DNA of 64,000 nt, taken from contig LCDA01000002.1 in the NCBI GenBank assembly GCA_000998275.1, positions 46,708 to 110,707 on the forward strand. Reading direction: 5' to 3'. Source of the stretch: Candidatus Collierbacteria bacterium GW2011_GWA2_42_17. Its GTDB lineage: Bacteria > Patescibacteriota > Microgenomatia > UBA1400 > MFAQ01. Below are positions 3,933 through 55,910 of the stretch, in pieces. Every line of letters begins with the position of its first letter. Positions within the stretch are counted from its first letter, which is position 1. Both the position numbers and the translations under genes were made by a program. The notes under the pieces are model-generated. The model was not told the DNA's origin and searched no databases. It saw only the letters and a program-made list of their open reading frames with translations.

Positions 3933-3944
3933 CGCCTAATTTTA

Positions 3945-5069
3945 TCATCTGAGCTGCTCGAGATGCTTCAGAAAACTTGCTGTGACCAAATCACCGTTAT
4001 GCCTATACTTTCTCAACCAGCTATAGGTATCCTTTACAAAATACTCTATTTCTTCTTTAGGTACCGACCTAAATCTTGGATCGTGATAAAAAAGCCTTCC
4101 CATGGTCATTCTCCGACACTTAAGACAACTTCCACACCAGTGTCCAGAGCTGTTTTTGGCAATTTCAGGAGTTTCCCGTACCCATTTCTGTCTGGAATTA
4201 GGTAGTTGGTAAGTAGCACTAAAACAGTTCTGTACCAAAGGAATAATATCTATTCCCAAACTCTTTTCCAATCTAATTACTTCACCTACCGTCTCAATAT
4301 CACCCACATCTATTCCTTCAACCTCCATTTTCAAATTAGCCTCGGCTATAAGATTGTTAAACATTTTCCAAGCCCCTGCATTCTCACTAAAATGGCTTTT
4401 GGCTGGATCTTCAACCATGTCCCCTTCTACAAACATTTTGTTTACTCCATAAGGATAGGCTGTAACGGCCGAAACAACCGCCAGTAAAAAGTCGCGCGTT
4501 CTCATAGTATCAAAGCCATCATTTTTTGAATTATTTCTTAAACGCACTAGCTCATATGGTATTTTCCACTCATCACACTGTTTTTTGCTCGCCACAAACT
4601 CCTCATGATTCCCTTTTCTGTTCAAATTCCTCAAGTGAACCGCCACCACTGGCTTCTTTTTTTCCTGCATTAGCGCCAGTCGATAAGCCGAGTCCAGACC
4701 ACCAGAGTGCGCGCTGGCATACTCAATTTTTTGGAGCACCTCTTCTCCCTTATTCTGCTTTTCAAATTTAATCTCATCGGACATTTTAAAAATAGGTGGT
4801 CGATATCCGTAGTATTTATATAGCTCATCGATAAACACCTTCTCGGTAACCCCAAAATTTGTCTCCACTATTTTTGGAAAAAATGGTGCGATAAGATGTG
4901 CCACCATCACGGTTCTCATCAATCCCATTCCCTCTTCCGGTACCCCACCATAATCTCTGTGTTCCACCAAACCCAATCCTCTTTTTTCTCCGGTCAATAC
5001 ATTCATATCCAGAAAATCTTTTCCGGACACATTTATATGGATTCGCTCGCACTGTTCAATACCTGACAT
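3945..5069 (-). CDS. PP-loop superfamily ATP pyrophosphatase of unknown specificity (QueC-like core with an N-terminal extension)
   Basis: SGGLDS PP-loop at about residue 120 and a C-terminal Cys cluster (HWCGSCLKC) like the QueC zinc site. An extra N-terminal domain of about 110 aa has no family assignment. Confidence 0.5.
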   Translation of the reverse strand: MSGIEQCERIHINVSGKDFLDMNVLTGEKRGLGLVEHRDYGGVPEEGMGLMRTVMVAHLIAPFFPKIVETNFGVTEKVFIDELYKYYGYRPPIFKMSDEIKFEKQNKGEEVLQKIEYASAHSGGLDSAYRLALMQEKKKPVVAVHLRNLNRKGNHEEFVASKKQCDEWKIPYELVRLRNNSKNDGFDTMRTRDFLLAVVSAVTAYPYGVNKMFVEGDMVEDPAKSHFSENAGAWKMFNNLIAEANLKMEVEGIDVGDIETVGEVIRLEKSLGIDIIPLVQNCFSATYQLPNSRQKWVRETPEIAKNSSGHWCGSCLKCRRMTMGRLFYHDPRFRSVPKEEIEYFVKDTYSWLRKYRHNGDLVTASFLKHLEQLR

Positions 5070-5180
5070 GGGGATAATATATCACGAGTGCGTAAATCGA
5101 GAAAATGGCCCAACGACCTCCTCCCATTGTCGTCTGGAAAGAAACCCAATTCTCCAAAAGTTAGGTGCTAAAATATCACA

Positions 5181-16006: not shown

Positions 16007-16032
16007 ATCTCAATCTTACCAGAAATATTTAT

Positions 16033-26176: not shown

Positions 26177-27691
26177 CTATTTTAAGAACAAAGGAACCAT
26201 CTCTTTGGCAATTGGTGCCGCCACGGCACTTCCTTCTCCACCCTCTTCGACTAAAACCGTCACTACCACCCAATCCTTTACATTGTTTCCGACGGGAATC
26301 ACCATCGTCAGCCAAGCATTTGGCATTGTATCCTCCCCACCTTTTTGCGCTGTTCCGGTTTTGCAATATATTTTTCCACCATAACTATACAAGGGAAAGG
26401 CAGTACCCCCGGTACTACACACCGCCTGCATTCCCTCCAGCACAGTCTTTCTGTTAGTCTCATTAATCTTCAAGTCGACACAGGTACTTGCCCCAACCAA
26501 CCTGGGCGAGCATTTTATCCCGGATACTACCGCCGCCGTCATCATATTTATCTGCAAAGGAGTGGCCATTAAATCTCCCTGGCCAATAGCCAAGTGATAG
26601 GTATTTCCCAAAAACCACTTCTCGCCAAAAGTTTTCTCTCTCCAGTAAGGCGATGGCATAAAGCCGCTAGACTCTCCCGGTAGATCAATTCCTGTCTTTT
26701 CCCCCAATCCCAATTTTTCACTCCATTTAACCAGATTATCTATTCCCAAAGCCTCCCCCGCTTTATAAAAGAAAATATCATTACTGCGAGCAATCGCTTT
26801 CACTACGTTTATCTGTCCCTCTGTCTGACCATATTTATCTAGTAGCCAGTTCCCAAAACGATAAGCCCCAATTACAATTTCTCCGCTATCGGCAATCAAA
26901 GTATCTTTGGTTATTTTTTTCTCTTCCAAAGCCGCCAAAGCCGGCACCAACTTAAATACCGAACCTGGTGCAAAATCCCCAGACAACGCTCTGTTAAACA
27001 AAGGCTTCTTTTCCGTGTTTGAAAGCAGACTCTCCACATCTTTAAACTCTCCCCCAAAGTCACTTCTTTTTCCGTCTGCAATAAACAGATTCGTGTCATA
27101 AGACGGCACGGAAACCAAAGCCAAAACTTTTCCGTCAACTGTCGTTACCAACACCACTCCACTCTTCCCTGTTTTTTCTAAAGCATTTTTCAGTGCCAAA
27201 AAAGCCGTTTGTTGTACCGACAAATCCAGATTCGTCACCAAATTTTCACCGGGAACCGGACTCTTTCTCACCATTTCCGTCCGTCTTGTTCCTTGGGCAG
27301 TTTCTTCAACCACAGTTTCACCAGGAGTTCCAGCCAGTCTCTTTTGATACTGGCTTTCCAGTCCGGATATACCGACCAGAATGTCTCCGTTAACCCCCGA
27401 ATCAGTTGGTTTTCCGATATAGCCAACAACTCCGGCCGTCACTTCTCCAAAAGGATAAAAGCGCACCACTTTCCCATCGTTCTCAATGTTCATTGCTATA
27501 TTTTTCCCGTTTTTATCGGTTATCACCCCTCTCTTGGCTTCGATAAACTCTACTCGAACCATATTTCCCTTAGCTAAATCAGTGAAATGTCCACCCATAA
27601 ATACCGTCAAAAAAAACACTCTTGAAAATCCCACGGCAAATAAAAGGATGAGAATCATACTGGTCAGTCCAAATGACTTGTTCTCGGACAT
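26177..27691 (-). CDS. mrdA: Peptidoglycan D,D-transpeptidase (penicillin-binding protein 2)
   Basis: N-terminal TM and transpeptidase motifs (SVFK = SxxK, plus a KTG-like KTGT). Lies directly downstream of mreD. Confidence 0.85.
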   Translation of the reverse strand: MSENKSFGLTSMILILLFAVGFSRVFFLTVFMGGHFTDLAKGNMVRVEFIEAKRGVITDKNGKNIAMNIENDGKVVRFYPFGEVTAGVVGYIGKPTDSGVNGDILVGISGLESQYQKRLAGTPGETVVEETAQGTRRTEMVRKSPVPGENLVTNLDLSVQQTAFLALKNALEKTGKSGVVLVTTVDGKVLALVSVPSYDTNLFIADGKRSDFGGEFKDVESLLSNTEKKPLFNRALSGDFAPGSVFKLVPALAALEEKKITKDTLIADSGEIVIGAYRFGNWLLDKYGQTEGQINVVKAIARSNDIFFYKAGEALGIDNLVKWSEKLGLGEKTGIDLPGESSGFMPSPYWREKTFGEKWFLGNTYHLAIGQGDLMATPLQINMMTAAVVSGIKCSPRLVGASTCVDLKINETNRKTVLEGMQAVCSTGGTAFPLYSYGGKIYCKTGTAQKGGEDTMPNAWLTMVIPVGNNVKDWVVVTVLVEEGGEGSAVAAPIAKEMVPLFLK

Positions 27692-27692
27692 T

Positions 27693-28112
27693 CTAATAGT
27701 TTATTCTAATCGTTTCTGTTCTCTCAAACCAGGACAGCGCCAAAAGCCCCGACAGCAATACTACCAGCGTCTCCCACAAACTCCAACTCAGTCCAAAAGC
27801 CATATCAAAAACAACACTGCATACCACTCCCAAAAGCACCATTACCCAACCCATCTCTTTTCTAGTGCTCATAATAATAGAAAGTCCGCCGATTACAACC
27901 AGTATAAACAAGCTCGGTAAACCAATCGACAAACCTCGTAAAACCGAAATCAAAATACCCACCCCAAATGCCAGCCAATAAACTCCATTCCAATTTAATA
28001 GGGTCAAAAGAAATGGCCAAAAAAGACCCCACCCCAGTACCCCCTCACCCAAAAGTACCATTATCAAAAGAGTTAAAACTGTTTTTGTGGTATTCTTGGA
28101 TTGCTTATCCAT
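27693..28112 (-). CDS. mreD: Rod shape-determining protein MreD-like (polytopic membrane protein, 139 aa)
   Basis: Four to five hydrophobic helices and a position immediately upstream of PBP2. ATG start at 28112. Confidence 0.55.
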   Translation of the reverse strand: MDKQSKNTTKTVLTLLIMVLLGEGVLGWGLFWPFLLTLLNWNGVYWLAFGVGILISVLRGLSIGLPSLFILVVIGGLSIIMSTRKEMGWVMVLLGVVCSVVFDMAFGLSWSLWETLVVLLSGLLALSWFERTETIRINY

Positions 28113-28883
28113 AATTTTATGACGTCAACTAAGATTAATTTACTACTCTTACCTCTGTTGGTCTCCATCCTACTATCAACTGCCGGCAAACTCAAGATAG
28201 GTAAAACACTAGACAACGTCTTCTATACCATTTTAACCCCTATTCATATGCCGGTAGGCTACCTCCGCCAAGTAGCCGACACCCAAATATCTTTCATCAG
28301 CAGTCTCCCTAAACTTAAACAGCAAAACAAAGACCTAATATTCCAAAACTCGCGTCTACTTTCTGAAAACGAACAGCTCAAACAATCCATCGTTGATTCG
28401 AAAACAGCTATCCTTACCCAAAACTTCAAGTCCGTTCTTCCTGTACGACTTACCGGCTCCATTGGCAACAACTCCGTCTCCTCATCCCTACCTCTGGACA
28501 AAGTCAAAAAAGGCCAACCTCTAATTTTTGGCAAAATTCTTCTCGGCACTGTTGCCGATGTCAAAGGTTCGGTTATCAATATCACCCCCCTGGATAGTGA
28601 TCATATCGAGGTTTTTCCCGTACATACTTCCTCTGGTCAAAAAGGGCAGTATAAATTTATTTCTAACACTCCCCAAATTACCGACATTCCCAGTCTCTCA
28701 CCGATCACCTTTGGTGACTACGTTTTTACCGAACCAGGAGAACTCATTCCGGGAAATCTTATTATCGGTAAGATAACCAAGATAATCTCCGCTCAACAGG
28801 AACCTCTCCAAAAAGCCCAGATAAAACTGGAAACAACTTTAAGAAACACAACTGACGGTCTGGTAATCATTCTTGAACCATAA
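28101..28883 (+). CDS. mreC: Rod shape-determining protein MreC; the probable start is the ATG at 28119
   Basis: N-terminal TM, a coiled-coil (LKQQNKDLIFQNSRLLSENEQLKQ), and C-terminal beta domains matching MreC (GDYVFT.EPGELIPGNLIIGKITKI...GLVIIL). Encoded on the strand opposite to mreB, mreD and mrdA. Confidence 0.75.
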   Translation: MLIHNFMTSTKINLLLLPLLVSILLSTAGKLKIGKTLDNVFYTILTPIHMPVGYLRQVADTQISFISSLPKLKQQNKDLIFQNSRLLSENEQLKQSIVDSKTAILTQNFKSVLPVRLTGSIGNNSVSSSLPLDKVKKGQPLIFGKILLGTVADVKGSVINITPLDSDHIEVFPVHTSSGQKGQYKFISNTPQITDIPSLSPITFGDYVFTEPGELIPGNLIIGKITKIISAQQEPLQKAQIKLETTLRNTTDGLVIILEP

Positions 28884-28917
28884 AAAAGCCCCCGTCCAAA
28901 ACGAGGGCATTCCCAAT

Positions 28918-29295
28918 TTATCCACCACCAAGGACTAAGTACAGAACAGCGTTGACAAGAAATGATCCTTGATTGACAATTCCCATCACCGGATCAAAAT
29001 TAGCCAACACTCCCTTCGCCAAAGACAAGGTAATCCACTCAAACAGCGGTAATGTAACCAACCAGCCAAGCAACATTACCGCAAAACATCCGCCTTGAAC
29101 GAAGTCTCCGAAGGCTCTTATTGCGACCATGATGATCACACCCACCAAGGCTATTCCAAAAATGAACCACGAAAGTCCAAGAAAGAACTGTTCGACACCC
29201 ACCACGTGAGTGAAGAAATCAAACCACCAAGCATTCCCAACCAGCGCTGAATTTCTTACCTGAAAAAGAGCAATCAACAAAGATAGCCAAGACAT
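28918..29295 (-). CDS. Hypothetical polytopic membrane protein (125 aa)
   Basis: Four hydrophobic helices. Lies between mreB and the inverted mreC. Confidence 0.45.
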   Translation of the reverse strand: MSWLSLLIALFQVRNSALVGNAWWFDFFTHVVGVEQFFLGLSWFIFGIALVGVIIMVAIRAFGDFVQGGCFAVMLLGWLVTLPLFEWITLSLAKGVLANFDPVMGIVNQGSFLVNAVLYLVLGGG

Positions 29296-29385
29296 ATTCC
29301 AACCTCCTATATGTGAGAATTTTAAACTACGCGCACATAATAGCTTAATATAGGGTATTTGTCAATCCTATTTAGATAAAAAACT

Positions 29386-30450
29386 TTACCTCAAGCCTCC
29401 AACAACTCTAACTTTACTCAATAATCTGTCGTTCTCCAATACTCTCGCACACCCCCTTACCACCGCCTCCATTGGTGTCTCCGTCACCCAGACCGGCATA
29501 CCCGTCTGTTCGGCAATTAGCTTATCAATTCCCCGAATAAGCGACCCTCCTCCCGCCATGACCATCCCCTTTTCCAAAATATCGGCTACCAAATCCGGAG
29601 GAGTCTCTTCAATAATCAGGGTGATCTCGGAAAGAATTTGATTAACGACAGGCATCATTGCCTCTCGAATCTCAATACTGTTCAACTTCATCGACTTCGG
29701 TAACCCGTTCTCCAAGCTTCTACCGCGAACTACGATCTCCAAAGGTTTTCCTTCCTTCTCACACTTCAATGGAAACGCCGACCCTACTTTAATTTTGACT
29801 TCTTCGGCAGTACTCTCGCCCAAAAGTAAACTATATTTCAGTCTTACAAAATTAGAAATTGCTTCCGTAAGCTCATCACCTGCCACCCGTAACGATCGAT
29901 TCAAAACCAAACCACCAAGAGAAATAATTCCGATTTCGCTTGTTCCTCCACCAATATCACAAACCATCTGACCTTCGGCTTTTTCAATGGGAAGCCCTGA
30001 ACCAATCGCTGCCGCCATCGGTTCTTCGACTAAAAACGCTGCTCGCGCACCGGCCGACAACGCCGCTTCTTGCACCGCTCTTCGCTCTACCTCAGTAACA
30101 CCAGATGGAATACCGATTGCTACGCGGGGACGGGCAATTTTAAATCCGAGACCTTTATAGAACTCATGGACCTCTACTATATAGTGTTTAAGCATCGCTT
30201 CCGCTGCGTCAAAATCCGCAATCACTCCATCACGCAACGGTCGAACCACCTCGATACTGGCAGGATTCTTTCCCAACATCTTTTTCGCTTCTTCTCCTAT
30301 AGCCAAAATTTCTTTGGTCTTCATATGGCGAGCAACTACTGATGGTTGTCTAATCACCACCCCCTTACCGGCAACGTGAACCACAGTATTAGCCGTACCC
30401 AAATCGATACCAACATCAAGAGTGGCTAATCTCCACAAAGACTCGAACAT
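29386..30450 (-). CDS. mreB: Rod shape-determining actin homolog MreB
   Basis: Actin-fold phosphate motifs (VGIDLGTANT, DIGGGTSEIG) and 354 aa. Confidence 0.92.
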   Translation of the reverse strand: MFESLWRLATLDVGIDLGTANTVVHVAGKGVVIRQPSVVARHMKTKEILAIGEEAKKMLGKNPASIEVVRPLRDGVIADFDAAEAMLKHYIVEVHEFYKGLGFKIARPRVAIGIPSGVTEVERRAVQEAALSAGARAAFLVEEPMAAAIGSGLPIEKAEGQMVCDIGGGTSEIGIISLGGLVLNRSLRVAGDELTEAISNFVRLKYSLLLGESTAEEVKIKVGSAFPLKCEKEGKPLEIVVRGRSLENGLPKSMKLNSIEIREAMMPVVNQILSEITLIIEETPPDLVADILEKGMVMAGGGSLIRGIDKLIAEQTGMPVWVTETPMEAVVRGCARVLENDRLLSKVRVVGGLR

Positions 30451-30537
30451 AATATGGCTAATAATAACAGATTACCTCATTTTTTGAGAGGCAAAAACAC
30501 TACCAAAAACATAAATCACAAAATGTTAAACTAATCC

Positions 30538-33424: not shown

Positions 33425-33529
33425 TTTTCCTCCTTCCTCCTATTTAAAGTTCAATTCGGATTTCCAACCGGAAGTATAACTCTCGTGAATATAATAGTCA
33501 ACCTATAAGACAAATGTTAAAATAGAGTT

Positions 33530-38992: not shown

Positions 38993-40198
38993 ATGCCCAA
39001 CGATGACCTCGGAAGTTTCCCTATGCCTCAACAAACGCCCTCCGCCCCTGTAGAGCCTGTTGTCGCCGACAACGTAGCACCACCACCCATTACCTCACCG
39101 ATACCAAGCGAAGAAGGGTCACCTCAAATCGAACCCATCGTATCCACCACCATGGAAAATACTTCTCCGGCAACTCCACCGATTATCTCCCCGGAGACTC
39201 CCACTTCCGAACCTCAAACTCCTCAATTTCCTACCTTTGAAGAAACTCCAGAAGAAATTCCCTCGCAACAAATGTCTACCATTTTGGTTGATGAGCATGA
39301 AAAACTTGCCGCCGCCAACGAAAGTATGATCGAGAAACAATCCCCTTCGTTAACTTCACAGCCCGCACTCCAACCTGAACCGGTTAAGCCAGCCGAAACT
39401 CCACCCGAAGCTGCTCTTCCACCAAAATCCCGGTCCCTGGCCCCCGTTATTATCGTCATTCTCTTAATAGTTGCCGGTGTCGGCCTCGCCGCCGCCGCAT
39501 ATCTCTCTTCCCAGTCAAATAAACTCAAAACACAGCTTTCCGAAATTACACAGACTCTCGAAAAACAAAAAACAATTCTCACCCCTACCGTCACCCCTAC
39601 CGTTTTTCAAATCCCGACTCCCACAACTGCTACTCAAACTGCCGTCATTGCTACTTCCTCAGCTACCCCTACTACAACAACAATACCCATCAACACCGAG
39701 GAAATCCTCCCGCTAACAAACGCCGCTGCGGTTCTTAAAGTGGCCATCAACCACTCACCCAATGCTCAACTAATTCTCATTAAAGTCGACAACGCTACCG
39801 ACCCCTCAACCGTCGTTACCAAGTACTTTTTCCGTGAAGACTTGACCACCAAAAAGTACTTCTTTGTCTCCATTTCCAGCAATGGTATTCCCGAACTTAT
39901 TGATAAACAAATTTATGTTAATCCTGACAACAATATCCCTTCTCTAAACGACGCTGTTCTGACAAACAAAATGGGAATGGATCTTGGTGAAACCTTAAAA
40001 CTTACCTACACTCAATGCGCCAACCAAACCGCTTGTACCTCTGCCCCCGTTAAGGCGATGTACATCAATACCAGCTCAGGCATCACTTGGCAACTCTCTC
40101 TTTACACCAATGGTCTCTCCGCGACACCTCTTTTGATTCAAATAAACGCCGAGACAAAAGCCATCATTTACAAATCCCCCGAGTTCGCCAACAAATAA
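38993..40198 (+). CDS. Pro/Thr-rich single-pass membrane protein of unknown function (401 aa)
   Basis: Low-complexity P/T/E-rich N-terminal region, a TM helix (LAPVIIVILLIVAGVGLAAAAYL), and a C-terminal globular region. Confidence 0.5.
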   Translation: MPNDDLGSFPMPQQTPSAPVEPVVADNVAPPPITSPIPSEEGSPQIEPIVSTTMENTSPATPPIISPETPTSEPQTPQFPTFEETPEEIPSQQMSTILVDEHEKLAAANESMIEKQSPSLTSQPALQPEPVKPAETPPEAALPPKSRSLAPVIIVILLIVAGVGLAAAAYLSSQSNKLKTQLSEITQTLEKQKTILTPTVTPTVFQIPTPTTATQTAVIATSSATPTTTTIPINTEEILPLTNAAAVLKVAINHSPNAQLILIKVDNATDPSTVVTKYFFREDLTTKKYFFVSISSNGIPELIDKQIYVNPDNNIPSLNDAVLTNKMGMDLGETLKLTYTQCANQTACTSAPVKAMYINTSSGITWQLSLYTNGLSATPLLIQINAETKAIIYKSPEFANK

Positions 40199-41953: not shown

Positions 41954-44900
41954 TTACAAATTTCCACTTTCACTAGCCGTCTCCGTCGGCGTTATTACTA
42001 CCACTGGCGTTGGCGTAGGCGTCTCTGTTGGACTTGGGGTTGAGCTCAACTCAGTTGTAGGAGTTGGCGTTATGGTAGTTTCCAGTATTGGAGTTGGTTC
42101 AGGTGTTACCGTTTCACTTGGCAGGTCAACAACTCCCCCACTTCCTTCAAACTTGCCTGTTTCATTTACTGCTAGAGCAACCCAGGCAAATCGTAAATCC
42201 ATGCCGACTCCTCTACTCAAACGAATCTTAAAGCCTCTGGTATTTACATCGGCAATAGCATAACCGGGAATGTCGGCAACCGAAGCACCTCCTACAATTT
42301 GCACCGTGGCAGTTACCACTGGTTCGTCTTTATATTCTCTCTCAAACAAAATCTCCACTTGGCTGCCTCCAGTTTTAATCGTGGCAAAACCTGCTGTGTC
42401 TTTATTAAACGTTGGCCTTCCGACAAAGTTTACCTCTCCTCTAAAGATCACTTTGCCCAAAAACTCTACTGTGTTCCTAAACACCTCAGCTATTTTCTTG
42501 GAAATTAGGTCTAATATATCAATCTCACTCGAAGTATCACTTTGTATTTCACCGGCAGCCGTGGCCACTCCTGCTACCCGATCACTCAACAGACTCAGTT
42601 TCCTGGTCAAGATATCCACTCCTTCGATCCTCCCGGCCTTTATCGTATCTGCGTAAAGTATTCCTGAAAAAGTGGCGTCACCCGACACTAGTAGGTCCTG
42701 TGTCACCACTTTTGGAGTTATTATTTCCAGTCCGGCAACCACTCTGTCAGCTATTATGTCGGACATGTTTGCCGAGTCAGTCGCAACTTGATTTTTTTCC
42801 ATAATCAGATTAGTCAGCACCTCATAACCATTAGCTACATCAATTCCCTTCATCACTTCAGTAAGATTACTTCCGGTACTGTTACCATTCTTCACAAAAA
42901 CAATTACGACTCCAACTCCTTCTCCGTCATATCCGGTCATCGCCGTCCCAATTATTGCTCCGGCCTTTGTTGCTCTCATCGCCACCCCAGGAATGGATGA
43001 AGAAGTCAGATAATCTCCGGCCTTGATTTCCCCATTTTCCGCCGACACTTTTACTGGCACCCTTCCCGAAAGAGCTACCAGTACCGGAGTTCCCGATACA
43101 TTTCCGTCACCAAGCACCATTCCCGGTTTTGTCGATACTATTCCCAGTACTGTGGAATCATAAGTCTTTCTGGATTTCTGGACGCCATTCTGAATTGAAC
43201 TGTCAACAGAAACGACGTCTCCTTCAGCTATTGAGCCATCATTCGATGAATACACTTCCGCCAAATCAGCCCCGCCGACCTTGAAAGCTTCCAAGAAGCT
43301 ACCTGCTTTAACCGTCACGTTCGTTCCCACCCCTGCCGTATTTTCGGCAAACTGAAAATTGAAGGTCCCTGCCGTTGCTCCGGTAGTGATAATTCCCTGA
43401 ATCCAGACATCAAAACCTTGACCTGCATCTGAAGCAATATTGTTATTAACCATCTCGGCTGGGGTTGTACAGTCTGTAGTTAATGCTTGTAGAAATACAG
43501 CTCCTACTGACTCAGATCCCGACTGCTGAACACTACAAGTGGTAGCTGCAGGACCAAGAATCGCTGCTTTCCAATCCGGCCCGTTACTGCTTCCGTTAGT
43601 TACAATCAGATGCAGTCTGAACACCCAAGATTCACTGGCCGCCATTGAAAACTGTAAAGCTGTATCATTGGTCAGGGTGGTACTATTGGTCACCGCCTGG
43701 TCAGTAGATTTAGTAATAAACAACTTATCTCCCCCAATACAGTTTGTCCAAGCACCGTTTTGGTAACATCTGAATTTATTAGTACTAGTGTTGTAATAGG
43801 TAGCCCCGTTTGTTCCGATTGGATCGGCCGTTCCGTTATCCAGCACCAACAAATCTGGTGTCGCCGTGGCGCTGTTTCCGATTACTACCCTTCCTGTCGA
43901 CGATGTTGGACCAACCATAAAGTTCACATTTCCAGTTCCGGAATATAAGTTTAAAGCCGTTGCACCAGTTGTATTACCCATCGTTATCGTCTTTGCATTG
44001 GCATTGGTACCAATATTAATTGCTCCGGTTGTTCCCGAGTCGAGTGTCACTGTTCCTGTTGTTCCGGTTGTAAAGGACAGATTTCCGGAAGTACCGGTTA
44101 GTAAAGTAATTCCTCCCGTACCGGAGTTGATGTTGACCGAAGTAGACGTATTAGTATTTCCTAAGGTAATCGCTTTTGCCGAAGCTCCGGTTCCAATATT
44201 TAGAGACATCGCCCCGGTCCCTGTAAATAAATTTGCCGTCCCCGTTTGGGCAGTTCCTCCCATCGTAAAGGTTCCATTCGTCGTCGAAGTTCCGAAAGAA
44301 TACGTTGTTGCCCCTGCTCCATCCAAAATAAAGTTCCCCGTACCCGCATACATATTTAGGGCACCCGTTCCCGTCGCACTACCAATCGTAATTGTTTTTC
44401 CGGTCGCGCTATTACCGATGTTTATCGCCCCGACACCGGAATCGATATTAATCGCCTGAGCCAGTGTCGCGTTTCCAATAGTCACTCCACCAGCCGCCGT
44501 TGTATCAATTATCGGAAATGACCTGGCAAAAATACCCAAAGGTGCCGCCGTCGATGACGGTAATGTCCGAGCATTCAAAATATACTGTGATCCCGCACCA
44601 TTTATTGCCGCCGTCGTCTCCCCAAAAGTAAACGCTGTTTTTACGGCTGTTGTCAAAGCAAAGTTCCAAGCCTGTGCATTGTCGCCATTAGCAATGGTAC
44701 TTCCACCTAAAGCAGCCGAAATTGAATCGAGACTGGTACCACTTGCACTACAAGCCCACGCCGTCCCACTATATTTAAGAATCTCTCCCGATGAACAAGT
44801 TCGAAGTAATGACAAACCGGTACTATTTACTAACCCACCGCCGGTACTTAGTTGAACTGCCGAACCCGATACTTTATTTGCCGTTGTGATTGTTGATAGG

Positions 44901-47275
44901 CTAGTATCAGCAATATTGGAAAGTGTATTCAAACTGGCATCTATTGTTTTATTTGTCAAAGCTATCGCAGTGTCCGTCAAAACGACTTTTGTTCCGGTTC
45001 TGATTCTTGCCACACCACCAGTTTGATCAGTAATCACAAACTCTTCGGACGAAGTTGTCGCCGGTCCGAACTGAAGCGTCGTTACTGCTCCAACCGATGG
45101 AGAACCGTCTGATTCTGCCACGGTCACGGATCCTCCGCCTGTTGAATCCGCACTACATGTCCAACCGGTAGCCGCCGTCCATTTTAGAATTTGATTATCA
45201 CTACAAGTCCTAAGTAGCGACAAACCGGAATCATTCACCAAACCACCATTGGCATTTAATGTCGGTGACCCCGATGTACTATCCGTATTACACACCCAAG
45301 ACGTTCCATTGTATTTAAGGATCTCTCCTGATGCGCAGGTTCTGAGCAAAGACAAGCCAGTACTATCTACTAACCCACCGCCGGTACTTAGTTGAACTGC
45401 TGAACCCGATACTTTATTTGCCGTTGTGATTGTTGCCAAATTGGCATCGGTTATTCCCGCAGTCCCGGATAAATTTGAGTTCGTAAGTCCGGAAATAGTA
45501 TTGGCTCCGGCGGCAATCGTTTTATTTGTTAACGTCCCTGACTCATTCAGAAATACAAAGGTGTCATTCCCCGACAAAGCCGGAATCGTCGCTGTTCTAC
45601 TGGCACTTGGTGCTGTAGAGGAAATCGTTGTCGTATTGGTTGTTCCCAATACCAGCTGATTATTTACCTTGGTCAGTGTAAGTGAATTAAACGTTGGTGT
45701 CGCTGTTGAATCGATATTTTGGATCGTATTCACCGACCCACTAACTACACTAAAGTTTGTTGAGTTATAGTTTGCTACTCCTTTTAATGTTGTTGAGGCG
45801 TCCACTCCGGCAATTGTTACTGTTCCTCCAAGAGATACCGGTGAACCGCTCACCGAAATTCCACTCCCCGGAGAGACAAAGATACTACTGTTGGATAGCT
45901 GGCCATTGGTAATACCCGCAGAGGCCGCTAGATTAGCCGAGGTTAATCCTGAAATAGCTGTGTTCGTTACTCCACTCACTCTCCCGTTTGCGTCGGTCGT
46001 CAACACCGGAATGTCTGTCGCTGTGCCGTAGGTTCCGGCTGTTCCCACGCTGGGTAACACTCCCGCAATATTTATCGTTGTCCCGGACGCAGTTACCGTA
46101 TTTAATCCGCTGCCGGTAATCGTAAGACCCCCGGTTAAACTATTTATACTTGATACTCCCGTCCCCACCCCACTTACCGACTGACACTCCCATGAATCTC
46201 CATCCCAACTCAACACCTGGTCTATCGAACAGCCCGTCAAAAGACTCAAACCCGAGTCATTTGTTAACCCCCCTCCGCCTCTCAACGATACTGCGGCTCC
46301 GGATACTTTATTTGCCTCGGTAATTTGAGCCAGTTTTGCATTAGTTATCTCTCCATCACCAATTTTTCCCGACGTAATTGTCCCATCTGTTATTTTGGCT
46401 CCAGTCACAGCGGAATCAGCCAGTTTGATGGTCGTCACCGCCCCGTCAGCCAACTTCAGAGTTGTTATCGAACCATTTACAATCTGGGCATCACCAACCA
46501 CCCCACTATTGATTATGGCCAATCCGGTCACTGGATCTATCGTAATGGCTCCGGAAACTACCGATGGTGTAGGGGATATTTCTGCCCCTGGAAGAATCAC
46601 CGTCACGGTTTCTTGAGCTTGATCTAACCATTTAAAAACCTCTTTTCCAACAGCTGCAGTAGCTATATCCACCTCCTGCAAAGACGGTGTAATGCTTATA
46701 TTTTCAAAATTACCTCGAGTATCTATCGTACCCAAAATTTGGGAATTATCTTTTAGACTTCGCAGATCCACGTCCCCAACCATCTTACCGCCGTTTATTC
46801 TGCCGTTAATTATTTTTACGGGGAGCGTTGTTCCGTCGGTCAGTGTTATACCAACCACTCCGTGTAACACAATCATGGCGTTCTCTATTACTCGATTATC
46901 GTCATCATAGATATTTACCGTCCCCTTTATTTCCTGGGTCAGTTTTGCCTCACCATTTTGATAAACAAGTTCTGTAAGATCAACGTATTTTTCATTTTGA
47001 ATCTGTGCGTTTTGAACTTTTACAAATGCGTACTCTCCGTTGGTTCGTGCTATTACCAAATATGGCTGATTGCCCAAATTGCTCTCTGACAATACCTCCG
47101 GAGTTACTTCCGAAACAGCCTGAATTGTCACTTGTTTTTCAACAACAGCAGGCTTGATCTTGCCGCCACTAATTGCAAAAACAACCCCTCCCCCAGTAAT
47201 CACAAAAAACAGAATCAAGATAAAACGCACTACCTGATCATATTTATTTCCAGTAATTAGCTGAGAACCTTCCAT
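41954..47275 (-). CDS. Giant (1773 aa) N-terminally anchored repetitive surface protein, tail-fibre/adhesin-like
   Basis: N-terminal TM. Short (I/L)TxxKLADGAVT-type repeats. Four copies of a module ANKVSGSAVQL.TGGGLVxSTGLSLLRTC...ILK(Y/W)...W.C with a conserved Cys pair. Long G/T/S/N-rich beta-like tracts. A C-terminal PT-rich linker. The start codon abuts the stop of the upstream gene. Confidence 0.8.
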   Translation of the reverse strand: MEGSQLITGNKYDQVVRFILILFFVITGGGVVFAISGGKIKPAVVEKQVTIQAVSEVTPEVLSESNLGNQPYLVIARTNGEYAFVKVQNAQIQNEKYVDLTELVYQNGEAKLTQEIKGTVNIYDDDNRVIENAMIVLHGVVGITLTDGTTLPVKIINGRINGGKMVGDVDLRSLKDNSQILGTIDTRGNFENISITPSLQEVDIATAAVGKEVFKWLDQAQETVTVILPGAEISPTPSVVSGAITIDPVTGLAIINSGVVGDAQIVNGSITTLKLADGAVTTIKLADSAVTGAKITDGTITSGKIGDGEITNAKLAQITEANKVSGAAVSLRGGGGLTNDSGLSLLTGCSIDQVLSWDGDSWECQSVSGVGTGVSSINSLTGGLTITGSGLNTVTASGTTINIAGVLPSVGTAGTYGTATDIPVLTTDANGRVSGVTNTAISGLTSANLAASAGITNGQLSNSSIFVSPGSGISVSGSPVSLGGTVTIAGVDASTTLKGVANYNSTNFSVVSGSVNTIQNIDSTATPTFNSLTLTKVNNQLVLGTTNTTTISSTAPSASRTATIPALSGNDTFVFLNESGTLTNKTIAAGANTISGLTNSNLSGTAGITDANLATITTANKVSGSAVQLSTGGGLVDSTGLSLLRTCASGEILKYNGTSWVCNTDSTSGSPTLNANGGLVNDSGLSLLRTCSDNQILKWTAATGWTCSADSTGGGSVTVAESDGSPSVGAVTTLQFGPATTSSEEFVITDQTGGVARIRTGTKVVLTDTAIALTNKTIDASLNTLSNIADTSLSTITTANKVSGSAVQLSTGGGLVNSTGLSLLRTCSSGEILKYSGTAWACSASGTSLDSISAALGGSTIANGDNAQAWNFALTTAVKTAFTFGETTAAINGAGSQYILNARTLPSSTAAPLGIFARSFPIIDTTAAGGVTIGNATLAQAINIDSGVGAINIGNSATGKTITIGSATGTGALNMYAGTGNFILDGAGATTYSFGTSTTNGTFTMGGTAQTGTANLFTGTGAMSLNIGTGASAKAITLGNTNTSTSVNINSGTGGITLLTGTSGNLSFTTGTTGTVTLDSGTTGAINIGTNANAKTITMGNTTGATALNLYSGTGNVNFMVGPTSSTGRVVIGNSATATPDLLVLDNGTADPIGTNGATYYNTSTNKFRCYQNGAWTNCIGGDKLFITKSTDQAVTNSTTLTNDTALQFSMAASESWVFRLHLIVTNGSSNGPDWKAAILGPAATTCSVQQSGSESVGAVFLQALTTDCTTPAEMVNNNIASDAGQGFDVWIQGIITTGATAGTFNFQFAENTAGVGTNVTVKAGSFLEAFKVGGADLAEVYSSNDGSIAEGDVVSVDSSIQNGVQKSRKTYDSTVLGIVSTKPGMVLGDGNVSGTPVLVALSGRVPVKVSAENGEIKAGDYLTSSSIPGVAMRATKAGAIIGTAMTGYDGEGVGVVIVFVKNGNSTGSNLTEVMKGIDVANGYEVLTNLIMEKNQVATDSANMSDIIADRVVAGLEIITPKVVTQDLLVSGDATFSGILYADTIKAGRIEGVDILTRKLSLLSDRVAGVATAAGEIQSDTSSEIDILDLISKKIAEVFRNTVEFLGKVIFRGEVNFVGRPTFNKDTAGFATIKTGGSQVEILFEREYKDEPVVTATVQIVGGASVADIPGYAIADVNTRGFKIRLSRGVGMDLRFAWVALAVNETGKFEGSGGVVDLPSETVTPEPTPILETTITPTPTTELSSTPSPTETPTPTPVVVITPTETASESGNL
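44767..45436. repeat. Two near-identical (2-3 mismatches) intragenic direct repeats of about 130 bp, 540 bp apart, inside the giant gene
   Basis: 44767..44896 against 45307..45436, compared by eye. They correspond to module copies 2 and 4. More diverged copies lie at about 45180-45260 and 46180-46330. Confidence 0.85.
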
Positions 47276-47277
47276 TT

Positions 47278-49263
47278 CTATTTTTCCCCCATCCTTCTCG
47301 TGGTCTTAATAAAAATAATAGAGGTCAGCATCACAATCCCTATGATTAGAAATAATATAAGCAACCAAGTTAACCACGATAGGTTCACATCAAGCACTTT
47401 TTGAACCGGCTCGGAAACAATAACCGTCAATCCATACTTCGAAAGCTTACTTGATCCGAATAAGGAATGTAGTCCTCTCCAGTTATATCCCTCCATATTT
47501 ACCGCGTTTGTTTTCCATAGATCGTAACTACCGTCAGCCTCATTCACCACTACCCCCAGTCTGTCGGCATTAGGGTGTACTACCATTTTTCCTCCCTCCC
47601 CAACCACAACGACTTCCTGTCCCAATGTACTATCACCTACCCTCTGGAGTTCACTTGATAGATTTACTCCTGAAACAGCCACAAATAAAACACCCGATAC
47701 CACATTTTTTGTGTTGACTGTCGGAACGGCAATCAAGAAAACGTCATCAACTCCCTCAATTAAATTTTCTAAGGCCATCGAAACATATGTTTTCCCAGTG
47801 TTTAGTGTTGAGTTAAAAAACTCAGCACCTGCAAAACTAGACGAGTTAAACATTGCCGAGGTTGGATAAGAGGCGATCGGTTCCCCATCTGCCTCAATTA
47901 CACCAGCGATAGCCACATCGGTTCTTCCTAAAGATAAAAACTTCAACTGGTCTGCAAGCTCTTTACTTTGCGAACGAACAAAGGCCTTAATAAACACTTC
48001 ATTCTTTGATAAATCAGTCACTCCTTGTGTCAAACCATCGATGGTTCTTGATAACTCCACCCTGGCAAAATCGGCCTTTTCAGAAAGTCCTCGGTTTGCA
48101 TTACTGATTAAAGTTCCCTGAACCACAGCAATCATCAAAATCACCAATATGAAGCACATGAGAACTGAACCAAAAACTTTAAACACCAAGGTGCGCTCTG
48201 AAACCAACCTGGCCTTAAACGAGTCCCAGGATGGCAAAACCATACCTATTAAACCTGCGATTAGAGTCGCAAAGAACCTTGACCAATAATTCTCTATACC
48301 GTAATAGAGTGCCAAACTACAAAGTATCAATCCATAAGCAAACGAAATACTCTTCAGAAATCTCTTGTTCCAAAAAAATCCATAAAGACCGAAGGCAATC
48401 AGTACCAATATTAACAGGCTTAAAAGCCATCCTAAACCACCAAATACCGACTTTAATCCCAAAGTTACTACTGACAGGTCTGAGCCGTCAGGAAAAAAGT
48501 TTAAAGCAATAAACACACTAATTAGTAATCCAAAAATATATAGCATATACAAAGTTGAAGACTCAACTTCGCTCAAAGCCTCAATCAAAATCACCAAACC
48601 AAACAAGCCGTGAATCAAAAAACCGTCAATGTCTCCTCCTGAAAACAAAACTACCGCTAACCCCAAAAAGGTAGCCCCCAAAAAATATCGGAAAATATTT
48701 GTCAGGTTCACTGTACGTCCAACCTCTTCTTGAATCATCGAAGCTAGAATCAAACCAAACCCTCCAAATATCATTCCCAAACGAACTGGATTTAACCAAA
48801 GAGACAGTCTTCCTAGGGATAAAACATCCTGTTGGTTAGAGTACAAAAACAGAGACATTCCCAAAACAATAGATGTCAGGCTTATTAACCAGTCAAACAG
48901 CGTCGGAAATCCTACTCTTTCCACCAACCACAGTCTCATCGTATGCAAAAAAGACTCTCCACTCAGATCCGACAGACTTTTTCCTGGTCTCGGTGTTGGT
49001 AATAATGCGCTAGGTAATACATCTTGTTGTGATAATATCGCTACTCCTTCTTTTTTACTCGTGGTAGGTTTTTCTTTGGACTCGATTATTTCTCCTTCAC
49101 CCTTGTTGCCTTCAAACTTCTTAATTTCCAGCTCTGGAATTCTAAATTTTCCCTTACCGATTCTGACGGAATTTATCAAACCCTCTTTCAAAAAACCATA
49201 GATGCTATTTGTTGAGTAACCAAGAATCTTGGCGGTCTCTGAAACCGAGTATGTTTTCTTCAT
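47278..49263 (-). CDS. Membrane protein with an N-terminal excisionase/MerR-like HTH, about 10 TM helices, a C-terminal extracytoplasmic Cache-like domain and a final TM (661 aa)
   Basis: N-terminus MKKTYSVSETAKILGYSTNSIYGFLKEGLINSVRIGKGKFRIP (HTH_17-like). A long hydrophobic core. The C-terminal soluble region resembles a Cache/sensor domain, followed by WLTWLLILFLIIGIVMLTSIIFI. Confidence 0.65.
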   Translation of the reverse strand: MKKTYSVSETAKILGYSTNSIYGFLKEGLINSVRIGKGKFRIPELEIKKFEGNKGEGEIIESKEKPTTSKKEGVAILSQQDVLPSALLPTPRPGKSLSDLSGESFLHTMRLWLVERVGFPTLFDWLISLTSIVLGMSLFLYSNQQDVLSLGRLSLWLNPVRLGMIFGGFGLILASMIQEEVGRTVNLTNIFRYFLGATFLGLAVVLFSGGDIDGFLIHGLFGLVILIEALSEVESSTLYMLYIFGLLISVFIALNFFPDGSDLSVVTLGLKSVFGGLGWLLSLLILVLIAFGLYGFFWNKRFLKSISFAYGLILCSLALYYGIENYWSRFFATLIAGLIGMVLPSWDSFKARLVSERTLVFKVFGSVLMCFILVILMIAVVQGTLISNANRGLSEKADFARVELSRTIDGLTQGVTDLSKNEVFIKAFVRSQSKELADQLKFLSLGRTDVAIAGVIEADGEPIASYPTSAMFNSSSFAGAEFFNSTLNTGKTYVSMALENLIEGVDDVFLIAVPTVNTKNVVSGVLFVAVSGVNLSSELQRVGDSTLGQEVVVVGEGGKMVVHPNADRLGVVVNEADGSYDLWKTNAVNMEGYNWRGLHSLFGSSKLSKYGLTVIVSEPVQKVLDVNLSWLTWLLILFLIIGIVMLTSIIFIKTTRRMGEK

Positions 49264-51770: not shown

Positions 51771-51939
51771 AACGTAATTTTAACTTTTCAATATATTGAA
51801 AGCAATTACTGGTTGAGGAGCAATAAAGGTTTCCAGAAAGTATATGCCAATGCATGATATGCGAAGAATTTTTTTGTTTATTATGGTTACGAAGGAATCA
51901 AAACTGTAATTAATATTACTTTTCTGCTAGGATTTAGGT

Positions 51940-55878: not shown

Positions 55879-55910
55879 GAATTCAGCTTAGCATTTTCCC
55901 CTGACTAAAA

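What the first reader, a model, noticed from the sequence alone, without database searches (positions are those of the whole stretch)
26177..30450. Cell-shape cluster with mreC inverted in place, head-to-head with mreD
mreB, a small membrane ORF, mreD and PBP2 (mrdA) all read on the minus strand in canonical order. mreC sits in its expected slot between mreB and mreD but on the plus strand. The probable mreC ATG is at 28119 and the mreD ATG at 28112, so the divergent start codons are 6 bp apart. The mreD/mrdA promoter would then have to lie inside mreC coding sequence, and mreC must have its own promoter inside or beyond mreD. A single-gene in-place inversion inside a conserved operon is unusual.
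Basis: seen in the sequence. Interest (0 to 1): 0.5.

Follow-up and report, generated by a model that had tools for sequence, protein, structure and literature searches.

The report
Anciently inverted mreC in Collierbacteria
In this uncultured Collierbacteria-type bacterium, one gene of the conserved cell-shape cluster (mreC) really is flipped against its neighbours; the flip is old and shared by the whole lineage, and mreC probably has a promoter hidden in the first codons of the neighbouring gene mreD, which makes it a tidy evolutionary curiosity rather than a new kind of system.

Summary
MreC (28119-28883, +; Pfam PF04085 at 38 bits, cutoff 28) lies between mreB (-) and mreD-like/PBP2 (-). 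Its ATG is 6 bp from the mreD ATG.

It is not a misassembly. The same layout occurs in at least 24 contigs from independent samples and assemblers, and in every relative in which MreC could be located (PBP2 at least about 51% identical, MreB at least 74%, MreC down to 23%). In a PBP2 tree all 40 inverted loci form one clade. Outgroups (PBP2 36-43% identical) have the canonical mreB-mreC-mreD-pbp2 order. mreC's third-position GC skew (-0.51) equals that of other + strand genes, so the inversion is ancient.

The head-to-head junction is very tight. It ranges from a 13-nt overlap (up to 19 nt on another start call) to a few bp, and 11 lineages share a CATG in which the two start codons overlap.

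An extended -10 motif (TGnTATTCT, 28088-28096) sits on the mreC strand inside mreD codons 6-9 in 37 of 37 lineages. Its codon pattern points to DNA-level constraint. The genome uses TGnTAnnnT-N6-ATG (leaderless-type) promoters widely.

The mreD-pbp2 promoter is unresolved.

I found no prior description. This is a new variant of a known cluster, of modest interest.

The parts
26177..27691 (-). PBP2-like class B transpeptidase (mrdA-like). Its ATG lies 1 nt after the mreD stop (TAGaATG).
   Evidence: Pfam Transpeptidase 7.8e-48 and PBP_dimer 1.2e-13. TIGR03423 pbp2_mrdA scores 374 bits, below the equivalog cutoff of 455. The stop/start geometry was read. ATGA or 1-nt spacing is seen in most relatives.
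27693..28112 (-). Probable MreD (139 aa, about 5 helices). It carries an N-terminal extension (MDKQSKNTTK) that outgroup MreD lacks.
   Evidence: No Pfam or NCBIfam hit for the window protein. hhalign against the outgroup family in the MreD slot gives probability 98%, E 1.5e-13. The outgroup ORFs and the L038 orthologue give sub-threshold PF04093 hits. A low-confidence AF2 model shows 5 helices.
28088..28096 (+). Candidate extended -10 promoter of mreC (TGGTATTCT), embedded antisense in mreD codons 6-9. The predicted TSS is near 28103, giving a leader of about 16 nt with no SD.
   Evidence: It is the only TGnTAnnnT within 160 nt upstream of mreC, and it sits at the homologous position in 37 of 37 lineages. 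The codon table shows invariant third positions exactly at TG and A-11, while 'n' takes all four bases. The same motif type lies 5-7 nt before 11 other start codons in the window.
28110..28121 (.). Head-to-head junction CATaattttATG. The divergent start codons are 6 bp apart, and neither gene has an SD.
   Evidence: In relatives the spacing runs from a 13-nt overlap (up to 19 nt on the script's alternative start call) to +8 nt in most, and 11 lineages have CATG with 2-nt overlapping start codons.
28119..28883 (+). mreC (254 aa): N-terminal TM helix, central coiled-coil-like stretch, C-terminal MreC barrel core.
   Evidence: PF04085 at 38.2 bits, above GA 28. The family profile hits PDB MreC chains. 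88 homologue clusters all carry PF04085. Third-position GC skew is -0.51, the same as other + strand genes.
28888..28908 (.). GC-rich hairpin between the convergent mreC and small-ORF ends. It is followed by a T-run on the - strand and preceded by an A-run on the + strand. Likely a bidirectional terminator.
   Evidence: Terminator scan: 9 pairs, 6 G-C, tail TTTTTTATGG on the - strand. Comparable hairpins follow the mreC stop in about 15 of 35 relatives.
28918..29295 (-). Small membrane ORF (125 aa) of unknown function with a GGAGG SD. It lies in the variable interval between mreC and mreB.
   Evidence: No Pfam or NCBIfam hit. SD seen. Detected in only some relatives (L008-10, L012, L020, L033, L034; a same-sized 125-aa ORF in the same position follows mreB in L036, homology not tested).
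29337..29365 (-). Sigma-70-like promoter match (TTGACA-17-TATTAT, 11 of 12) upstream of the small ORF.
   Evidence: Consensus scan only.
29386..30450 (-). mreB
   Evidence: PF06723 3.2e-126. NF010539 at 445.6 bits, above cutoff 293.
30461..30469 (-). Extended -10-like motif TGTTATTAT, 10 nt upstream of the mreB ATG.
   Evidence: Motif scan. Not tested further.

Best explanation
SHOWN. mreC was inverted in place once, in the common ancestor of a Microgenomates clade that includes Ca. Collierbacteria. That is, every sampled lineage with PBP2 at least about 51% identical and MreB at least 74% identical to this window in which MreC could be located. The inversion has been kept ever since. It converted the operon mreB-mreC-mreD-pbp2 into three units: mreB (with or without inserted genes) running into a convergent junction; mreC alone on the other strand; and mreD-pbp2, which stay translationally coupled. 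The inverted gene is intact and conserved, and it is compositionally equilibrated with its new strand.

INFERRED (about 60%). mreC is transcribed from an extended -10 promoter (TGnTATTCT, 28088-28096) that lies antisense inside codons 6-9 of mreD. These codons fall in an N-terminal extension that outgroup MreD lacks. In this window the result would be a short, SD-less leader of about 16 nt. In basal lineages the result would be a true leaderless mRNA, because a GTG start lies 6 nt after the hexamer.

INFERRED (weak). mreD-pbp2 has its own start site inside or just beyond the first codons of mreC. If so, the two mRNAs are back-to-back or overlap at their 5' ends.
For: Identity of the genes.

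Same layout in at least 24 contigs carrying the identical MreC, from different samples and assemblers.

Same orientation pattern in 23 of 23 GTDB species-representative loci; in more distant relatives found through MreB; and in 17 of 17 metagenome loci with PBP2 at least about 51% identical in which MreC was detected.

All 30 or so outgroup loci with a detectable MreC next to PBP2 are co-oriented, confirmed by Pfam for 4 of them.

In an NJ tree of PBP2, all 40 inverted loci form one clade.

GC skew at third codon positions: mreC -0.51, against a mean of -0.51 for + strand genes and -0.37 for - strand genes. A recent flip would give about +0.37.

Promoter: TGnTAnnnT is present once, at the homologous site, in 37 of 37 lineages. 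The X1 codon is always A-n-C (ACC, ATC, AAC or AGC), and the Asn/Asp codon is always T-ending, even though such codons make up 18-48% and 52-72% elsewhere in mreD. The motif type is strongly enriched 5-7 nt before start codons in this window: 11 genes for the extended form, and 23 of 56 for TAnnnT at 5-8 nt. Leaderless geometry is seen for mreC in L036, L037 and L050-L059, and for mreD in L038.
Against: No transcript data exist, so the promoter is a sequence inference inside a coding region where the amino acids (K-N) are also conserved. Lineages are not independent, so no proper P-value can be given.

TGnTAnnnT occurs 141 times on both strands of the window, and most of those are inside genes. 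The motif alone is therefore not specific.

In this window the hexamer is 22 nt from the ATG, which is not the N6 leaderless spacing.

No comparable motif was found upstream of mreD in compact-junction lineages.

'One clade' rests on a quick NJ tree of a single protein. The nearest sister loci (L063, L079, L096, L116) have no mre genes next to PBP2, so the exact branch is not pinned down.
Confidence: 0.8

Rival explanations
1. Assembly artefact: the 0.8-kb segment was flipped by the assembler.
For: Single-gene inversions with breakpoints exactly at gene boundaries can arise from misjoins. That is the only argument in favour.
Against: The arrangement is identical in at least 24 contigs from different projects and assemblers. 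It holds in all relatives down to 23% MreC identity in which MreC could be located. GC3 skew is fully adapted to the + strand. No flanking inverted repeats exist.
Confidence: 0.01
2. Programmed invertible element (phase-variable 'inverton') that switches mreC on and off.
For: A single gene flipped exactly in place. A poly-T tract between the starts varies (4-6 T) among near-identical strains.
Against: No inverted repeats bracket the gene; the best pair is 22 nt at 73% complementarity, and it lies inside the gene. None of the genes annotated nearby in these loci is a recombinase. Only one orientation is ever seen across dozens of populations. Composition is equilibrated.
Confidence: 0.02
3. Not an inversion but a replacement: the ancestral mreC was lost, and a (possibly foreign) mreC was re-inserted in the same slot in reverse.
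For: Collierbacteria MreC is very divergent (38-51 Pfam bits, against 69-105 in outgroups). The mreC-to-mreB interval is an insertion hot-spot holding 0-3 extra genes.
Against: The slot is exactly the same, with zero spacer on the mreD side. L038-type MreC inside the inverted clade still scores 97 bits, so divergence is gradual within the clade. Composition gives no sign of foreign origin. In-place inversion needs one event; replacement needs two.
Confidence: 0.07
4. The ancestral operon transcript persists: mreD-pbp2 are expressed mainly by read-through from the mreB promoter, running antisense across mreC. Only mreC has a new promoter.
For: No promoter motif was found for mreD in compact-junction lineages. 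In L013 and L041 the mreB stop is about 25 nt from the mreC stop with no hairpin.
Against: In the window a 9-bp GC-rich hairpin with a T-run on the - strand lies right where that transcript would enter mreC. Similar hairpins occur in about 15 relatives. L038 has a textbook TGGTAAGAT-N6-ATG directly before mreD, and L037 has TAGTAT-N6-ATG. Up to 3 kb of unrelated genes separate mreB from mreC in some lineages.
Confidence: 0.15

Closest known systems
Canonical mreBCD(-mrdA) cell-shape operon (E. coli and B. subtilis mreBCD; Caulobacter-type mreBCD-pbp2-rodA)
   Same: The same four gene families occur in the same linear order (mreB, mreC, mreD, pbp2). mreD and pbp2 are translationally coupled. 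Outgroup Microgenomates in this study have exactly this co-oriented layout.
   Different: mreC is on the opposite strand, so the cluster cannot be a single operon. The mreC and mreD starts are 6 bp apart, and they overlap in relatives. Extra genes sit between mreB and mreC. rodA was not detected among the ORFs scanned against Pfam, though not every ORF in the window was scanned.
Divergent (head-to-head) overlapping gene pairs / 'excludon'-type loci with 5'-overlapping divergent transcripts
   Same: The start codons are separated by -13 to +8 nt (up to -19 nt on an alternative start call). Promoters and 5' ends must therefore lie inside the partner gene, which is the geometry that defines these loci.
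   Different: Excludons are defined by long antisense 5' UTRs demonstrated by transcriptomics. No transcript data exist here, and the predicted overlap would be only tens of nt.
Leaderless / extended -10 (TGnTATAAT) promoters as described in Actinobacteria, Deinococcus and others (from my own knowledge, not tested against a database)
   Same: TGnTAnnnT lies 5-7 nt before start codons of many genes in this window. The mreC-associated motif has this form, and in basal lineages it has this spacing.
   Different: In this window the mreC motif is 22 nt from the ATG, implying a short leader rather than a leaderless mRNA. It is also embedded in the coding sequence of another gene.
G/C strand disparity of order UBA1400 genomes (Kadnikov et al. 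2020, PMC7143001)
   Same: The window has C at 27.8% against G at 15.8% on one strand, independent of gene orientation. That matches the published values for Ch65, Collierbacteria and Beckwithbacteria. All inverted-mreC loci show skew of 0.20-0.47.
   Different: That paper notes that MreBCD and RodA are present but says nothing about mreC orientation in the passages retrieved.

Membership tests
MreC (Pfam PF04085) | Match to the MreC barrel-core profile above the curated cutoff | tested here: met
   38.2 bits against GA 28, residues 133-255. All 88 homologue clusters carry PF04085. The family profile hits PDB MreC chains 9dvb_C (E 6.8e-4) and 7eft_A.
MreC (Pfam PF04085) | N-terminal membrane anchor followed by a coiled coil | tested here: inconclusive
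   A hydrophobic stretch INLLLLPLLVSILLSTAG at residues 6-23 is conserved. The coiled coil is suggested only by weak TSC22/YabA matches at residues 64-105. No dedicated TM or coiled-coil predictor was run.
MreD (Pfam PF04093) | Match to the MreD profile | tested here: not met
   The window protein has no hit at E<=1. The L038 orthologue scores 19.5 bits, below GA 24. Outgroup ORFs in the MreD slot score 10-22 bits.
MreD (Pfam PF04093) | Homology to the small polytopic membrane protein encoded between mreC and pbp2 in canonical clusters | tested here: met
   hhalign A4 against A5: probability 98%, E 1.5e-13, 134 aligned columns. Same position and coupling to pbp2. Five predicted helices, low-confidence model.
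PBP2 / MrdA (TIGR03423) | Score above the equivalog cutoff; transpeptidase plus dimerisation domains | tested here: inconclusive
   374 bits, below the cutoff of 455 but by far the best NCBIfam hit. PF00905 and PF03717 are both above cutoff.
MreB | Match above the curated cutoff | tested here: met
   NF010539 at 445.6 bits, above 293. PF06723 at 421 bits.
Canonical mreBCD operon | mreB, mreC and mreD co-oriented and contiguous | tested here: not met
   mreC is on the + strand; mreB and mreD are on the - strand. The same holds in all clade members in which MreC could be located.
Invertible phase-variation switch (inverton) | Inverted repeats flanking the segment, and both orientations present in populations | tested here: not met
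   No flanking IRs. A single orientation in at least 24 contigs of the same species and in all relatives in which MreC could be located.
Excludon / 5'-overlapping divergent transcription units | Experimentally mapped overlapping antisense 5' UTRs | not testable with these tools
   Only the geometry is available (6-bp spacer; motif at 28088-28096). Requires strand-specific RNA-seq or TSS mapping.

The most novel reading that the evidence does not exclude
The tight head-to-head junction may be a functional module rather than a frozen accident. After the inversion, mreD would have acquired an N-terminal coding extension that doubles as the mreC promoter (a dual-use sequence). Back-to-back or 5'-overlapping transcription of mreC and mreD-pbp2, including lineages where the two start codons share a CATG, would then couple or mutually limit expression of the elongasome partners MreC and MreD/PBP2.
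Probability: 0.2. Interest if true: 0.5.

Novelty: new variant of a known kind. Interest (0 to 1): 0.33.

Why it matters
mreBCD(-pbp2) is one of the most conserved gene orders in rod-shaped bacteria. It is usually explained by the need for co-expression and co-assembly of the elongasome.

This case shows a whole deep CPR lineage that broke the operon by flipping one gene and then kept the flipped state over a very long time, long enough for MreC to diverge to 23% identity. So strict co-transcription of mreC with mreB and mreD is dispensable.

The junction is also a clean natural example of divergent genes with abutting or overlapping start codons and a promoter written into the coding sequence of the neighbour.

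Practically, gene callers mis-annotate this locus. They produce truncated, over-extended or missing MreC or MreD calls. That could lead surveys to score these CPR genomes as lacking MreC or MreD.

It does not open a long-standing question.

Tried and rejected
- Flanking inverted repeats as a mechanism or switch: none convincing.
Replaced by a PBP2-anchored scan.
- Walking outward with the L038 MreC as query: only 4 hits, so no new lineages.
- Direct MreD assignment by Pfam/NCBIfam or by PDB profile search: no hits.
The single-sequence model was too poor (pLDDT 63, pTM 0.32) to justify a fold search.
- Leaderless model for both genes in this window: rejected for the window itself. CATAAT is only 3 nt from the mreC ATG, and TAAAAT is only 1 nt from the mreD ATG.
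- Search for TGnTAnnnT upstream of mreD inside mreC: none in any compact-junction lineage. AT-rich K-I-N codons give TAnnnT matches that are not informative.
- TAAACT-N6-ATG before pbp2 inside the 3' end of mreD: conserved only in close relatives, so judged uninformative.
- Literature searches for a prior description of inverted mreC: nothing relevant.


Full report
WHAT IS THERE. ORF listing and profile searches give the following layout.
- 26177-27691 (-): a class B PBP. Pfam Transpeptidase 7.8e-48 and PBP_dimer; the best NCBIfam hit is pbp2_mrdA at 374 bits, below the equivalog cutoff of 455.
- 27693-28112 (-): a 139-aa polytopic membrane ORF with no family hit.
- 28101/28119-28883 (+): a 254-aa ORF that matches Pfam MreC above threshold (38.2 bits against 28).
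- 28918-29295 (-): a 125-aa membrane ORF with no hit.
- 29386-30450 (-): MreB (421 bits).

Reading the sequence confirms CAT at 28110-28112 and ATG at 28119-28121, so the two divergent start codons are 6 bp apart. The mreD stop and the pbp2 ATG are 1 nt apart (TAGaATG). A GC-rich hairpin at 28888-28908, with a T-run on the - strand, lies between the convergent 3' ends of mreC and the small ORF.

ORGANISM AND COMPOSITION. The MreC is 100% identical to a protein that NCBI names from Candidatus Collierbacteria. The window has an extreme strand asymmetry: C 27.8% against G 15.8% on the + strand. Third-position GC skew is -0.51 in + strand genes, -0.37 in - strand genes and -0.25 in non-ORF DNA. 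This G/C disparity is already published for Collierbacteria, Beckwithbacteria and Ca. Chazhemtobacterium Ch65, in GTDB order UBA1400 (PMC7143001). It is useful here. mreC's third-position skew is -0.51, exactly the mean for + strand genes. A recently flipped or mis-assembled - strand gene would show about +0.37.

NOT AN ARTEFACT, NOT A SWITCH.
- The identical MreC is encoded on at least 24 contigs from different samples and assemblers. All show PBP2(-), 139 aa(-), MreC(+), 125 aa(-), MreB(-).
- No inverted repeats flank the gene, and no alternative orientation was seen anywhere.

HOW DEEP THE INVERSION GOES.
- A scan of one genome per GTDB species with an MreC profile gave 23 loci (MreC 44-91% identical). 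tblastn with the window proteins shows the same orientation pattern in all of them.
- More distant relatives reached through MreB (74-80% identical) also have MreC opposite to MreB, the 139-aa ORF and PBP2. In L038 the gene caller had missed MreC, but the ORF is there on the opposite strand. Their MreCs are only 23-29% identical to the window's.
- A PBP2-anchored scan of JGI metagenomes returned 80 loci with PBP2 identity from 97% down to 36%. Local HMM searches show a sharp boundary. In all 17 loci with PBP2 at least about 51% identical in which MreC was found, MreC is inverted. In all roughly 30 loci with PBP2 at 36-43% in which MreC was found next to PBP2, it is co-oriented (mreB-mreC-mreD-pbp2). 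Only L061 has mreB on the other strand.
- Pfam confirms MreC in both sets.
- In a neighbour-joining tree of PBP2, all 40 inverted loci form one clade. Canonical loci, and loci where mreB directly abuts pbp2, fall outside it.
- All inverted loci show strong GC skew (0.20-0.47), whereas most canonical loci show 0.0-0.2.
- The simplest reading is one in-place inversion in the ancestor of this clade, with breakpoints at mreB|mreC and mreC|mreD.

IS THE 139-aa ORF MreD? The direct profile tests fail. However, an alignment of the clade's ORFs matches an alignment of the ORFs that occupy the mreC-pbp2 slot in canonical outgroups (hhalign probability 98%, E 1.5e-13). Those outgroup ORFs, and the L038 orthologue, have PF04093 MreD as their only (sub-threshold) Pfam hit, apart from one weak extra DUF6442 match on one outgroup ORF. 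I call it a probable MreD. The alignment also shows that the clade's protein carries about 7-10 extra N-terminal residues (MDKQSKNTTK) that outgroup MreD lacks, as do L037 and L038.

THE JUNCTION. Across 37 distinct relatives, the two starts are separated by anything from an overlap to a few bp in most lineages. The overlap is 13 nt with the GTG start favoured here, or 19 nt with the TTG start the script picked. In 11 lineages the starts share the palindrome CATG, so the start codons overlap by 2 nt. The conserved N-termini of both proteins (MxxSxKINLLLLP and MxDKQSKN) support these start calls. Among near-identical strains, the T-tract between the starts varies from 4 to 6 T. By contrast, the convergent side (mreC 3' end to mreB) varies from about 25 nt to 3.3 kb and holds 0-3 unrelated genes.

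HOW IT IS PROBABLY EXPRESSED.
- Only 15 of 57 long ORFs in the window have an SD-like motif. A TAnnnT hexamer peaks sharply 6 nt before start codons: 13 genes at N6 and 23 of 56 at N5-8, against a background of about 1.7 per offset. The extended form TGnTAnnnT lies at N5-7 before 11 genes. This genome therefore appears to use leaderless or extended -10 promoters widely.
- Neither mreC nor mreD has an SD.
- On the mreC strand, exactly one TGnTAnnnT lies within 160 nt upstream of mreC in each of 37 lineages. It is always at the homologous place, antisense in mreD codons 6-9 (window 28088-28096, TGGTATTCT).
- The codon table shows that the mreD codon opposite 'GnT' is always A-n-C (ACC, ATC, AAC or AGC). 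The residue changes among Thr, Ile, Asn and Ser only through the unconstrained 'n'. The Asn/Asp codon opposite the critical A-11 is always T-ending. Elsewhere in mreD, C-ending versions of those codons make up only 18-48%, and T-ending Asn/Asp codons 52-72%. That pattern is what a DNA-level constraint on TG and A-11 predicts. It is not what protein-level constraint predicts.
- In L036 and L050-L059 a GTG start lies exactly 6 nt after the hexamer, which is leaderless geometry. In L037, which has a long spacer, mreC has TAGAAT-N6-ATG. In L038, mreD has TGGTAAGAT-N6-ATG.
- In the window the hexamer is 22 nt from the ATG, so I predict a TSS near 28103 and an A/U-rich leader of about 16 nt.
- All of this is inference from sequence. 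The lineages are phylogenetically related, and the motif is common by chance (141 hits in the window).
- For mreD-pbp2 I could not find a conserved promoter in compact-junction lineages. Read-through from mreB is a possible alternative where no terminator hairpin exists (L013, L041). It is unlikely in the window, given the hairpin at 28888-28908.

COMPARISON WITH WHAT IS KNOWN. The genes are ordinary members of the MreB, MreC, (probable) MreD and PBP2 families. What differs from the canonical operon is the orientation of mreC, the abutting or overlapping divergent starts, and the embedded promoter candidate. I found no paper describing this. The one paper that mentions MreBCD in a sister lineage does not comment on orientation in the passages retrieved. 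I rate it a new variant of a known kind.

VERDICT. The finding is real and well supported as an ancient, clade-defining single-gene inversion. The result is a neat case of operon break-up with dual-use sequence at a head-to-head junction. It is of modest interest (0.33) because the parts and their functions are ordinary and the regulatory consequences are untested.

Noticed in passing
whole window (1-64000): Extreme G/C strand disparity: C 27.8% against G 15.8% on the + strand. GC3 skew is -0.51 in + strand genes and -0.37 in - strand genes, so it is independent of gene orientation. Already published for Collierbacteria, Beckwithbacteria and Ch65 (PMC7143001), where unidirectional replication was proposed.
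   Followed up: partly
window, e.g. 3939-3947(-), 5076-5084(-), 5166-5174(+), 16013-16021(-), 33515-33523(+), 51925-51933(+), 55885-55893(-): An extended -10 motif TGnTAnnnT lies 5-7 nt before the start codon of 11 genes. TAnnnT lies at N5-8 before 23 of 56 long ORFs, and only 15 of 57 have an SD. This suggests widespread leaderless mRNAs in this CPR genome. I found no paper reporting this for Collierbacteria.
   Followed up: partly
window 28113-28118 and the same site in L013, L015, L040, L041: The T-tract between the divergent mreD and mreC start codons varies (AATTTT, AATTTTT, AATTTTTT) among strains whose flanking genes are 91-100% identical. This is a homopolymer length polymorphism at the shared 5' junction.
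   Followed up: no
L011, L012, L022, L024, L025, L028, L030, L031, L033, L045 (junctions): The divergent mreD and mreC start codons overlap by 2 nt in a CATG palindrome. Automatic gene calls avoid this overlap and mis-annotate. P0078 is a 229-aa MreC lacking its TM helix, P0082 is over-extended to 321 aa and swallows mreD, and in L038 mreC was not called at all.
   Followed up: yes
window 28884-29385; L008 4766-8105; L036 9062-11067; L013 6763-6786: The interval between the mreC 3' end and mreB is an insertion hot-spot, ranging from 25 nt to 3.3 kb with 0-3 unrelated ORFs. The 125-aa membrane ORF of the window (28918-29295, no family hit) was detected in only some lineages. In L036 a same-sized 125-aa ORF directly follows mreB; its homology was not tested.
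   Followed up: partly
L107 7874-10560; also L069, L073, L076, L085, L087, L088, L095, L099, L109, L114, L119: In two other groups of loci in the PBP2 tree, mreB is immediately followed by pbp2 (stop/start overlap) with no mreC or mreD between them. No MreC was detected within about 9 kb. The neighbourhood in L107 is otherwise syntenic with the window (def, Wzy-TPR, mreB, pbp2, DprA-like, topA). Several of these loci also have very strong GC skew (0.34-0.50).
   Followed up: partly
L037 12636-12854: The 219-nt spacer between the divergent mreC and mreD is filled by about 6 tandem copies of a roughly 32-nt unit (cgctaaagctcaggatct[g/t]cgacccatt).
   Followed up: no
window 27698-27727 (-): TTGAGA-18-TAAACT, followed by 6 nt and the pbp2 ATG, lies inside the 3' end of mreD. 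It could be an internal leaderless-type promoter for pbp2, but it is conserved only in close relatives.
   Followed up: partly
window 41954-47275 (-) and 47278-49263 (-): A 1773-aa ORF with no Pfam hit at E<=1e-5 lies directly downstream of a 661-aa HTH plus dCache protein. ORFs at 3945-5069 (374 aa) and 38993-40198 (401 aa) also have no Pfam hit.
   Followed up: no
window, whole: No RodA/FtsW-family gene was found next to pbp2 or among the large ORFs scanned. pbp2 is followed by an SPFH/Band_7 gene and topA.
   Followed up: partly
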